Of a DNA stretch of 64,000 nt, positions 48,001-51,000 are shown in pieces. Where the stretch lies: the NCBI RefSeq assembly GCF_041248615.1, contig NZ_CP158426.1; one strand, written 5' to 3'. The stretch comes from Escherichia coli. Lineage in GTDB: Bacteria > Pseudomonadota > Gammaproteobacteria > Enterobacterales > Enterobacteriaceae. Within the stretch, counting starts at the first letter, position 1. The number at the start of each line of letters is the position of its first letter. A program made the position numbers.

Positions 48001-51000
48001 TCCGCGTCAGTCAGCGCATTGGCCCGCATGTTCTGGTACAGGTTGGTAACCAGCCAGTAGTGCGCGTTCGATTTCCACGGATAAGACTCTGCATCCGGAT
48101 ACAGGCCTCGCTTCCGGCAATACTCGTAAACCATATCAACCAGCTCGCTGACGTTTGGCAGTCCGGCGATAACGGATGCTTCTTCCCGGCACCATGCAAC
48201 AAACTGCCCGGGTGATGGCAGAAATGGTCGATTCTGCCGACGGGCTACGCGCATTCCTGCGTTAACCTGTTCCATTGTGGTGATCCCGTTTTCCCGGAAA
48301 GCCAGAACCCACTGGCGGCGGATTTCGTTCAGTTCGTTCTGGTCACGGTTAGCCAGACTCGCCGGGAAAGTTGCCAGTAACTGGCTGAACACACCGTTGA
48401 TGATCTGCGCTACCTGCTGTACCTGCGGCTTTTCGTCGTACTGTTCCGGCATGTTGTTGGCGATCCGACGCATCTGCTCACGGTCAAAATTAACCATCTG
48501 TGCGGCGATGTTTTTCATAAATCCACCCCGTAAATCCAGTCAGTGTTTGTCAGGTCGAGTTTTGGTTTGCAGGCTGTCACACCTGCCTGTTGCTTGTTAC
48601 GGTTGATTTCGAGCTGGGTCCACTTGTCGCGGAGTTTGGCCGGGCTCAGCACGTTACCGGACCAGAAGTTGTCCTGGCATGCCCAGCGGAACAGTACACA
48701 CATGTCGCGATGGTTACGTCCGTCACGTTCACGCATCAGGCGGATATCGTTAGCCCACCCTGCAAAATTCGGTTTTCTGGCTGATGGCGCGATGGTCTTC
48801 ACCATGTCAAACATCCATTCTGCGGCGGTCAGGTCTTCTGCTGTCCCCCACTTGCTGCCGCTCTGAATTGCAGCATCCGGTTTCACCACAGAAAGGTCGT
48901 TTTCTGGCTGGTCAGAGGATTCGCCAGAATTCTCTGACGAATAATCTTTTCTTTTTTCTTTTGTAATAGTGTCTTTTGTGTCCCCCTGTTTTGAGGGATA
49001 GCAATCCCCCAATTTGAGGGATGTTTTATCCCTCGTTTTAGGGGATTTTCCCTCGTTTTGAGGGATACACCATTCTGAGATGTTTTTATTTGGTCCAAAC
49101 ATGCCGCCTTGCTGCTTGATAATATTCATTCTGACGAGTTCTAACTTGGCTTCATTGCACCGTTTGACGGGTAACTTTGTAATCTCGCTAAGTTGAGAAT
49201 CGGTGATTCTGTCCATTGGTTTATTCCATCCATAGGTTTTACGCAGAATGGCAAGCAGCACTTTAAACTGTCGCTTGGTCAGATCTGCGCCTGAATAAGC
49301 CTCAAGCAGCATATTTGATAGTCTGGCGTAACCATCATCGAGATCTGCCACATTACGCTCCTGTTTGGCAAAGTTACCTCTGCAGAAGTTGAGTATTTTT
49401 GCTGTATTTGTCATAATGACTCCTGTGGATTGATCCAGTAATGACCTCAGAATTCCATCTGGATTTGTTCAGAACGCTCGGTTGCCGCCGGGCGTTTTTT
49501 ATTGGTGAGTCCATCAAGCGCATACTTAAAAGCCCTGCTAATCGGACTGATGTCTGATGCCATTCCGAAAGCACACAAGACCGAAGCAATAAATCTCCAG
49601 TCCGTTCTGCTTATCTTCGATTCATGACAGCCAATCATCTTTGCCAGACCGCGCTGGGTAATAGCTGACAGATTGATAAGTAAATCTGTTTCTGCGCGAT
49701 CAACGTCACGCTGTGATAGTTTGCTGTAACTTGTTCTTTCCATTTCTTAAGATTTCCAATAGTGAATAGTTAGTTGAAAGGTATGCGTGGAAACGCATAT
49801 GGCCTTAGTTGGTCAGATATCTTGGAACTCGCTTTTCAGCGACGTAGGACGAATGTCCGTTGTTACAAAGAGCGGATCCGCTTATTAAGCGGCTTTGTGT
49901 TCCGGCGGGAACACGTCATCAAGACTGACTTTTGCGCCTAACTTGTTTAGGCACGCAACAAGAGCACGGCATGTTTTAAGGTCTGGGAAGCGACGACCAG
50001 ATTCCCAATGTCCGATAGCTCCCTGTGTGCATCCAACTGCCTTAGCAAGTGTTGTTTGAGAGATATTCAGTGACTCTCGATATTTTCGTAGGTTGCTCAT
50101 ATGCCCTCCATAGTAAACACGAATAAAAAAATACAATATGTACTTTGCGAATACAAGTAAAAATACACATTGTGCATGGATGGTTCCAGTACAGAGCGTA
50201 ATAATAAGGACATGAAAATGAAATGGTATGAACTGGCTAGATCCAGAATGAAAGAGCTCGGCATAACTCAAGAGAAGTTAGCCGAAGAGCTAGGTATGAC
50301 GCAGGGTGGGATTGGACACTGGTTGCGCGGATCTCGTCATCCATCTCTTAGTGATATTGGTGTGGTGTTTAAATACCTTGGTATTGATAACATATCATTC
50401 AACCACGACGGGACATTTTCACCTGTTGGCGAATACTCATCGGCCCCAGTTAAAAAACAATATGAGTACCCTGTTTTTTCTCATGTTCAGGCTGGGATGT
50501 TCTCTCCAGAACTCAGAACCTTTACCAAAGGCGATGCGGAGAGATTGGTAAGCACAACCAAAAAAGCCAGTGACTCTGCATTCTGGCTTGAGGTTGAAGG
50601 TAACTCAATGACCGCACCAACAGGTTCCAAACCCAGCTTTCCTGACGGGATGTTAATTCTGGTTGACCCTGAGCAAGCTGTTGAGCCCGGCGATTTCTGC
50701 ATAGCCAGACTTGGTGGTGATGAATTTACCTTCAAGAAACTGATCAGGGATAGCGGTCAGGTGTTTCTACAGCCACTAAACCCACAATACCCAATGATCC
50801 CATGCAATGAGAGTTGTTCCGTTGTGGGGAAAGTTATCGCCAGCCAATGGCCTGAAGAGACGTTTGGGTGATGAAACCACTTTTATCTACAATTTACAGG
50901 GCGGTAAACATTGGCAAAAATAGATGATTATCAGCCAAGCCAAGTAGAAGTTGATAAAGTACTTTATTGTAAAAAAATAGTTAACTTTTCTGGCGTTAAA

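What the first reader, a model, noticed from the sequence alone, without database searches (positions are those of the whole stretch)
48978..49066. Iteron array and AT-rich tract inside O: lambda-type origin
Four ~19-bp iterons sharing the core ccctc-N-ttt-N-agggat lie inside the O gene next to an AT-rich stretch, as in ori-lambda. Together with intact O and P this suggests a functional replicon.
Basis: partly seen in the sequence, partly recalled or inferred. Interest (0 to 1): 0.3.

Follow-up and report, generated by a model that had tools for sequence, protein, structure and literature searches.

The report
Phage lambda replication origin, verbatim
The repeats are the textbook replication origin of phage lambda, base-for-base identical to the reference, inside the O gene of an apparently complete lambda-like prophage in E. 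coli; it is real, probably functional, and ordinary.

Summary
Window 48982-49066 holds four 18-bp iterons. They are followed by a 41-bp tract of 78% A+T (48941-48981) and a short inverted repeat (48911-48938). All of this lies inside a 299-aa O gene on the minus strand.

- **Identity to lambda:** the 271 bp around the array match phage lambda (J02459) at 270 positions. The one change is synonymous and sits one base outside iteron 1. The GenBank features "ori iteron 1-4" map exactly onto the four repeats.
- **Proteins:** O differs from lambda O at 3 residues and P at 7.
- **Link to a working phage:** the block ren-P-O/ori-cII-cro-operators-cI (47530-50900) is 3371/3371 identical to Lambda_ev017, a temperate coliphage isolated from infant faecal viromes.
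- **Immunity region:** it is not lambda's. Lambda homology begins at the 3' end of cII.
- **Host context:** the prophage sits at icd in a chromosome 99.9% identical to E. coli NRZ14408.
- **Prevalence:** similar origin sequences occur in 1590 of 5426 complete E. coli genomes.

Verdict: already known, low interest. Replication itself was not tested here.

The parts
49049..49066 (-). Iteron ITN1 (O-binding site 1), ATCCCTCAAAACGAGGGA
   Evidence: Aligns to the lambda feature 'ori iteron 1' at 39034-39051 with 18/18 identity.
49029..49046 (-). Iteron ITN2, ATCCCCTAAAACGAGGGA
   Evidence: Aligns to lambda 'ori iteron 2' at 39054-39071 with 18/18 identity.
49005..49022 (-). Iteron ITN3, ATCCCTCAAATTGGGGGA
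   Evidence: Aligns to lambda 'ori iteron 3' at 39078-39095 with 18/18 identity.
48982..48999 (-). Iteron ITN4, ATCCCTCAAAACAGGGGG
   Evidence: Aligns to lambda 'ori iteron 4' at 39101-39118 with 18/18 identity.
48941..48981 (-). AT-rich tract, the presumed DNA-unwinding element. On the O-sense strand it reads ACACAAAAGACACTATTACAAAAGAAAAAAGAAAAGATTAT.
   Evidence: It is 22% G+C and 73% purine on the O-sense strand, and falls among the lowest 1.5% of 40-bp windows in the 64 kb. It is identical to lambda. PMC3349717 defines ori-lambda as 39034-39160, meaning ITN1-4 plus a 38-bp high-AT sequence.
48911..48938 (.). Inverted repeat to the right of the AT-rich tract (GTCAGAGGATTC / GAATTCTCTGAC)
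   Evidence: Pair I7 in the repeat finder: 12-nt arms, 92% complementary, 4 nt apart. Identical to lambda.
48515..49414 (-). Gene O, the replication initiator. The origin lies in its middle, at codons 117-158.
   Evidence: 299-aa ORF. Pfam Phage_rep_O E=5.7e-36. Three substitutions against lambda O: G11C, G17K and S282C. The gene is 100% identical at nucleotide level to O of phages ev017, ev207, PhiR57_1 and PhiR63_2.
47817..48518 (-). Gene P, the DnaB helicase loader. Its start overlaps the O stop codon.
   Evidence: 233-aa ORF. Pfam Phage_lambda_P E=9.5e-62. 97% identical to lambda P, with 7 substitutions.
47530..47820 (-). Gene ren
   Evidence: 96-aa ORF, annotated 'protein ren' in the near-identical RefSeq record.
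49389..49504 (+). The oop unit: a pO-like promoter (49389-49417) and the oop terminator hairpin with its T-run (49471-49498 and following). It is antisense to the cII 3' end and the O 5' end.
   Evidence: The promoter scan finds TTGAGT-17-CATAAT with an upstream TG, and a 12-pair terminator. The region is near-identical to lambda. The assignment to oop follows PMC3349717 and general knowledge of lambda. No Rfam family matched.
49447..49743 (-). Gene cII. The N-terminal part is non-lambda; the last ~17 codons are lambda-identical.
   Evidence: Pfam Phage_CII E=7e-34. In the alignment to lambda, continuous identity starts at CTCACCAATAAAAAACGCCCGG.
49885..50100 (-). cro-like HTH repressor gene, the first gene of the rightward operon that reads through O/ori and P
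   Evidence: Pfam HTH_3 E=4.2e-12. CDS in the RefSeq record.
50101..50175 (.). Divergent cI-cro control region, the expected place of pR/pRM and the right operators. It is of a non-lambda immunity type.
   Evidence: 75-bp AT-rich gap between divergent cro and cI, containing the palindrome TACTTGtattcgCAAAGTA. The consensus promoter scan did not call pR here, so the promoter assignment is an inference.
50176..50871 (+). cI repressor (HTH plus S24 peptidase). It keeps the origin silent in the lysogen.
   Evidence: Pfam Peptidase_S24 E=1.1e-28 and HTH_3 E=1.9e-10. The C-terminal ~138 residues are identical to lambda cI except for one (L for W). The N-terminal DNA-binding domain is unrelated in sequence.

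Best explanation
This is ori-lambda, the theta-replication origin of a rep-lambda-type lambdoid prophage.

The mechanism below comes from the lambda literature and is inferred here by sequence identity.
1. In the lysogen, cI represses the rightward promoter. No O or P is made, no transcription crosses the origin, and the origin stays silent.
2. After induction, or on infection, the rightward transcript (cro-cII-O-P) supplies O and P and also activates the origin transcriptionally.
3. Dimers of O bind the four dyad-symmetric iterons through the N-terminal domain and bend the DNA into the O-some. This destabilises the adjacent AT-rich tract.
4. P delivers the host DnaB helicase to the O-some.
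5. DnaK, DnaJ and GrpE release P. DnaB then unwinds the DNA, and DnaG and Pol III start bidirectional replication.
6. The oop RNA and free-O turnover by ClpXP modulate the system.

Shown here:
- the anatomy of the origin;
- its identity to lambda;
- intact O and P genes;
- identity of the whole module to a cultured phage.

Inferred, not shown: O binding, unwinding and firing.
For: -: 270/271 identity to lambda across ITN1-4, the AT-rich tract and the palindrome.
- the lambda GenBank features 'ori iteron 1-4' coincide with the four repeats.
- the motif occurs only here in 64 kb (5 matches against 0.18 expected; 0 of 100 shuffles reach 5).
- O (Phage_rep_O) and P (Phage_lambda_P) are full length and 99% and 97% identical to lambda.
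- the iterons start in codon phases 0, 2, 2 and 1. The repeat is therefore a DNA-level feature, not a peptide repeat.
- window 47530-50900 is 3371/3371 identical to Lambda_ev017.
- Lambda_ev017 and Lambda_ev207 are listed as temperate coliphages from viromes in the supplement of PMC6969025.
- published definitions of ori-lambda (four 18-bp iterons plus a 38-bp AT-rich tract, 39034-39160) and O footprints on these same iterons.
- the surrounding prophage carries the full lambdoid gene set, from int and xis to the tail genes.
Against: - Nothing in the sequence argues against this reading.
- No replication assay was possible.
- The simple sigma-70 scan did not call a pR promoter in the cI-cro gap, so the transcriptional-activation step rests on gene order and on identity to ev017.
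- O carries three substitutions against lambda (G11C, G17K, S282C) whose effects are untested, although the same allele is present in cultured phages.
- Among 61 distinct close O sequences, the origin segment is only modestly less variable than the gene average: 8 variable sites in 127 nt against 12.6 expected. Comparative data at this depth therefore add no independent evidence of constraint.
Confidence: 0.96

Rival explanations
1. The sequence is ori-lambda by descent but is a dead relic. On this view the prophage is cryptic and the origin never fires in this host.
For: The element carries some decay. One tail-fibre gene is annotated as incomplete, there is a DUF1364 gene fragment in the nin region, and IS1414 has inserted into the cargo gene sitD.
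Against: None of the damaged genes belongs to the replication module. That module, from ren to cI, is 100% identical to a cultured temperate phage. O, P, N, cro, cII, int and xis are all intact ORFs. Even excision-defective lambda prophages replicate in situ from ori-lambda after induction, the onion-skin or escape replication described in PMC3349717.
Confidence: 0.04
2. The repeats are a by-product of a repetitive or low-complexity peptide in the inter-domain linker of O, and have no function at the DNA level.
For: The array encodes a hydrophilic stretch rich in K, S, T and D (CIPQNEGKSPKTRDKTSLKLGDCYPSKQGDTKDTITKEKRKDYSS).
Against: The four units start in codon phases 0, 2, 2 and 1, with spacings of 20, 24 and 23 nt, so they do not encode a repeated peptide. 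Each unit is an inverted repeat, which a coding repeat does not explain. The same sites are footprinted by O protein (PMC7466680).
Confidence: 0.005
3. The dyad-symmetric units act as RNA hairpins or terminators rather than as protein-binding DNA sites.
For: The terminator scan flagged 49029-49044 on the + strand, inside ITN2, as terminator-like with 5 pairs.
Against: That call is on the strand antisense to O and has a weak stem. The scan found 6 such sites in 2 kb against 2.0 expected, so the criteria are loose. On the sense strand a terminator would abort O and P expression. The known function of these exact sequences is O binding.
Confidence: 0.005

Closest known systems
ori-lambda of Escherichia phage lambda (J02459 / NC_001416, 39034-39160)
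   Same: The iterons, spacers, AT-rich tract and right-hand palindrome have identical sequence, and the position inside O and the O-P gene arrangement are the same. O is 99% and P 97% identical.
   Different: - There is one synonymous C>T change one base to the left of ITN1 (lambda 39033, window 49067).
- O carries G11C, G17K and S282C.
- The immunity region (cI N-terminal domain, operators, cro, most of cII, and hence the 'ice' site) is not lambda's.
- The prophage integrates at icd rather than at attB between gal and bio.
Lambda_ev017 / Lambda_ev207 (LR597643, LR597636; Jouyvirus) and PhiR57_1 / PhiR63_2
   Same: The O gene is 100% identical. For ev017 the whole stretch from ren to cI is 3371/3371 identical. 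Window 39870-54100 is 99.66% identical to ev017. All carry sitABCD, use the icd-type integrase and have similar structural genes.
   Different: Parts of the early-left (ea/recombination) region differ: window 54100-60265 matches ev017 only in short pieces. In the window sitD is interrupted by IS1414.
Origins of Stx-converting lambdoid phages (933W, P27)
   Same: The same O/P-type replicon with the same iteron core and AT-rich tract, also located inside O (PMC7466680).
   Different: Stx phages have six iterons (1, 1', 1'', 2, 3, 4). The window has four. A six-iteron relative was seen in locus L082.
Iteron-type plasmid origins (such as RK2 oriV/TrfA and other Rep-iteron replicons)
   Same: The logic is the same: an array of repeated initiator-binding sites next to an AT-rich unwinding element (reviews PMC10797057 and PMC5043065, listed but not read here).
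   Different: The initiator family is different and the origin is not embedded in the initiator gene. This is an analogy only, and no homology is claimed.

Membership tests
ori-lambda (rep-lambda type lambdoid origin) | The origin is embedded in the initiator gene O, between its N- and C-terminal domains | tested here: met
   The iterons occupy O nt 349-433 of 900, starting at codon 117. Pfam Phage_rep_O covers residues 22-115.
ori-lambda (rep-lambda type lambdoid origin) | Four 18-bp iterons with internal dyad symmetry, spaced 20, 24 and 23 nt apart | tested here: met
   All four are identical to the annotated lambda iterons, with the same spacing. The motif is found nowhere else in the window.
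ori-lambda (rep-lambda type lambdoid origin) | An AT-rich tract of about 40 bp immediately to the right of ITN4 | tested here: met
   48941-48981 is 22% G+C and identical to lambda. The definition is taken from PMC3349717.
ori-lambda (rep-lambda type lambdoid origin) | A cognate O initiator whose DNA-binding N-terminal domain matches the iterons | tested here: met
   O residues 18-281 are identical to lambda O and the iterons are identical. Binding itself was not assayed.
ori-lambda (rep-lambda type lambdoid origin) | A P helicase loader encoded directly downstream of O | tested here: met
   Phage_lambda_P E=9.5e-62, 97% identical to lambda P, with overlapping start and stop codons.
ori-lambda (rep-lambda type lambdoid origin) | Rightward transcription from a repressor-controlled pR through or near the origin (transcriptional activation) | tested here: inconclusive
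   The gene order cI / cro-cII-O-P is as expected, and the region is identical to a cultured phage. However, the consensus scan did not call a promoter in the 75-bp cI-cro gap. Inspection by eye finds only weak -35/-10 candidates and one palindrome.
ori-lambda (rep-lambda type lambdoid origin) | O-dependent unwinding and autonomous (lambda-dv-type) replication | not testable with these tools
   This needs cloning, induction or in vitro assays.
Stx-phage six-iteron origin variant | Six iterons, with the extra units 1' and 1'' | tested here: not met
   There are only four iteron sites in the window, and the O gene is 900 nt as in lambda. The six-iteron form, with a 936-nt match, was seen only in relative L082.

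The most novel reading that the evidence does not exclude
The only non-textbook elements are the O allele and the foreign immunity region driving an unchanged ori-lambda.

The substitutions G11C and G17K lie in the extreme N-terminus of O, ahead of the Phage_rep_O domain. From my own recollection, not checked here, that region carries the ClpX recognition signal of lambda O.

These substitutions, or the different pR/operator context, could change O stability or the host-factor dependence of origin firing relative to lambda. Comparable effects have been reported for small differences in Stx phages (PMC7466680).
Probability: 0.1. Interest if true: 0.2.

Novelty: already known. Interest (0 to 1): 0.04.

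Why it matters
It matters little beyond annotation. It marks the replication module of an icd-integrated, sitABCD-carrying lambdoid prophage as being of the lambda O/P type and very probably competent. That is relevant to predicting whether the prophage can be induced, whether neighbouring host genes such as icd would be amplified in situ, and which other rep-lambda phages it would be incompatible with. It also illustrates lambdoid mosaicism: an unchanged lambda replicon joined to a different immunity region, with junctions inside cI and at the cII/oop terminator.

Tried and rejected
- **Rfam scan of the whole window:** no family reached its gathering score. It gave no independent support for oop or nut RNAs.
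- **PDB sequence search with O:** no solved relative. The positions of the three substitutions could not be placed on a structure.
- **Per-site variation among 79 close relatives from IMG/VR, giving 61 distinct sequences once the window and lambda are included:** the aim was to see whether the origin is more conserved than the rest of O. It is only weakly so (8 variable sites against 12.6 expected in 127 nt), which is not a usable signal at this divergence. The lack of any difference from lambda over O nt 349-596 could equally reflect mosaic ancestry.
- **Promoter scan for pR:** negative at the tool's thresholds.
- **Literature search for PhiR57, PhiR63 and PhiR11:** only unrelated papers.
- **PADLOC on O and P:** no hits, so there is no reason to read them as defence genes.
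- **Plasmid search:** the matches are mostly phage-sized records. They include 48.5-kb lambda genomes filed under unrelated species. There is no evidence that the window is plasmid-borne.

Full report
**Observation.** The + strand of window 48978-49066 contains four copies of a unit of about 18 nt with the core (T/C)CCC(T/C)NNWWTTNRGGGA.
- The repeat finder groups them into one family: 48983-49000, 49006-49023, 49030-49047 and 49050-49067.
- A degenerate pattern search finds these four sites and nothing else in the 64-kb window. It gives 5 matches, because one site matches on both strands, against 0.18 expected. None of 100 dinucleotide-preserving shuffles reached 5.
- Immediately to the left on the + strand lies a 41-bp tract at 48941-48981. 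It is 22% G+C and 73% purine on the opposite strand, and ranks in the lowest 1.5% of 40-bp windows.
- Next to that is a 12-nt-arm inverted repeat at 48911-48938.
- The finding's coordinates cover the iterons but only 4 nt of the AT-rich tract.

**Gene context.** The array lies in the middle of a 299-aa ORF on the minus strand (48515-49414) that matches Pfam Phage_rep_O (E=5.7e-36). The gene that follows and overlaps its stop codon (47817-48518) matches Phage_lambda_P (E=9.5e-62). Upstream lie a cII-family gene and an HTH cro-like gene. Reading away from them, on the opposite strand, is an HTH-S24 repressor gene.

**Identity with lambda.**
- Megablast of the O gene finds 167 phage records. These include lambda itself at 97.9% identity and four phage genomes at 100% (ev017, ev207, PhiR57_1, PhiR63_2).
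- The lambda GenBank record annotates 'ori iteron 1-4' at 39034-39051, 39054-39071, 39078-39095 and 39101-39118.
- The minus strand of window 48860-49130 aligned to lambda 38970-39240 gives 270 identical positions out of 271.
- The single difference is a synonymous C>T at lambda 39033, which is window 49067, one base outside ITN1.
- In window coordinates, O-sense on the minus strand, the iterons are ITN1 49049-49066, ITN2 49029-49046, ITN3 49005-49022 and ITN4 48982-48999. Spacing is 20, 24 and 23 nt, as in lambda.
- PMC3349717 defines ori-lambda as bases 39034-39160, meaning four 18-bp iterons joined to a 38-bp high-AT sequence. This corresponds to window 49066-48940.
- PMC7466680 reports DMS footprints of O protein on these iterons. 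It also reports that the AT-rich tract is dispensable for O-some formation but is the unwinding element.

**DNA-level rather than peptide-level repeat.** The iterons begin at O nucleotides 349, 369, 393 and 416, which are codon phases 0, 2, 2 and 1. They therefore do not encode a repeated peptide. Each has TCCCTC/GAGGGA-type dyad arms.

**Proteins.** O differs from lambda O at G11C, G17K and S282C. Residues 18-281, which include the whole Pfam domain, are unchanged. P differs at 7 of 233 residues.

**Control region.**
- Alignment with lambda shows that homology begins abruptly in the last ~17 codons of cII, at the oop terminator. It then continues through the cII-O gap and into O.
- The pO-like promoter (49389-49417, + strand) and the oop terminator (49471-49498, + strand) are both detected.
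- Everything to the left in phage orientation is of a different immunity type: most of cII including the lambda 'ice' position, the nutR region, cro, the operators and the N-terminal domain of cI. The C-terminal ~138 residues of cI are again lambda-identical apart from one residue.
- The simple promoter scan did not call pR in the 75-bp cI-cro gap. By eye there are weak -35/-10 candidates and a palindrome, TACTTGtattcgCAAAGTA. The transcriptional-activation step is thus inferred, not shown.

**Evidence that the module works.**
- Window 47530-50900 (ren, P, O/ori, cII, cro, control region, cI) is 3371/3371 identical to LR597643, Lambda_ev017.
- Window 39870-54100 is 99.66% identical to the same phage.
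- The supplement of PMC6969025 lists Lambda_ev017 (LR597643) and Lambda_ev207 (LR597636) among temperate coliphages recovered from infant faecal viromes, with titre data.
- A phage that forms plaques with exactly this replication module is strong indirect evidence that the origin is competent. It is still not a test on this prophage.

**Host and prophage.**
- The window is 99.9-100% identical to E. coli NRZ14408 chromosome NZ_LT599825.1, about 3075672-3139671.
- The prophage is bounded by a ~217-bp duplication of the icd 3' end, at window 10609-10825 and about 62396-62612. The integrase gene sits next to the intact icd.
- It carries a full lambdoid gene set: int, xis, recT, kil, ral, sieB, N, cI, cro, cII, O, P, ren, nin genes, rusA, Q, lysis genes, terminase, and the head and tail genes through J.

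**Prevalence.** A 201-bp query spanning the origin matches 1590 of 5426 complete E. coli genomes. In 774 records the match is at least 99% identical. Among 79 close relatives from IMG/VR, 61 carry exactly the window's origin sequence.

**Comparative constraint.** Among 61 distinct O gene sequences, 8 of the 127 origin positions vary, against 12.6 expected from the gene-wide rate. This is at most a weak signal, and I do not lean on it.

**Mechanism.** The steps are taken from the lambda literature (and established knowledge of lambda replication) and apply here by identity.
1. cI keeps pR shut in the lysogen.
2. On induction the rightward transcript supplies O and P and activates the origin.
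3. O dimers bind ITN1-4 and bend the DNA into an O-some that destabilises the AT-rich tract.
4. P loads DnaB.
5. DnaK, DnaJ and GrpE release P, and priming and bidirectional theta replication follow.

**Verdict.** The feature is the already known ori-lambda in a common type of E. coli prophage. Interest is low.

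Noticed in passing
window 10609-10825 and about 62396-62612: A direct duplication of about 217 bp of the icd 3' end (about 95% identical) brackets an element of about 51.8 kb. 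The integrase lies next to the intact icd, and a displaced icd pseudo-fragment lies next to iraM. This is the icd-type attachment arrangement.
   Followed up: partly
window about 12770-17515: The sitABCD iron/manganese transporter operon lies inside the att-bounded prophage, between the tail-fibre genes and the left end, so it is phage cargo. sitD is split by an IS1414 (IS256-like) insertion. PMC6969025 reports sitABCD as a moron on about 70% of infant-gut lambda-like phages.
   Followed up: partly
window 50911-52217 (+ strand): A two-gene cassette sits directly downstream of cI, in the position of lambda rexA/rexB. It comprises a 185-aa protein (weak DUF6978) and a 250-aa DUF1828 protein. They match the PADLOC candidate defence system PDC-M24, parts A (E=4.8e-4) and B (E=4.7e-10).
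   Followed up: partly
window 50176-50871: The cI repressor is a mosaic. Its N-terminal DNA-binding domain is unrelated in sequence to lambda's, while the C-terminal ~138 residues are identical to lambda cI except for one (L for W). A second lambda/non-lambda junction lies at the cII 3' end and oop terminator, near window 49505.
   Followed up: yes
locus L082, 1850-1975: One IMG/VR relative has a six-iteron origin of the Stx-phage type (extra units 1' and 1''), which lengthens O by 39 nt.
   Followed up: partly
window about 41440-41740 and 43525-44610: There are further morons in the late region. An iss/bor serum-survival lipoprotein gene and an ompC/nmpC-like porin gene lie between Q and the lysis cassette. 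A phage N6-adenine methyltransferase lies in the nin region.
   Followed up: no
window 14029-64000 against NZ_LT599825.1: The window is not strictly identical to the NRZ14408 RefSeq record. There are 36 mismatches and 7 gap positions over 50 kb (99.91%), which produces a 3-nt coordinate offset at the O gene. The flanks searched separately were 100% identical.
   Followed up: partly
plasmid collection hits H85, H88-H90: Records of 48.5 kb filed as plasmids of Salmonella, Stenotrophomonas and Paenibacillus match the O-P query at about 97% and have the length of the lambda genome. They may be control-DNA carry-over. A 7,007-bp E. coli 'plasmid' (CP148562.1) carries O, P and ren and could be a lambda-dv-like circle or an assembly fragment.
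   Followed up: no
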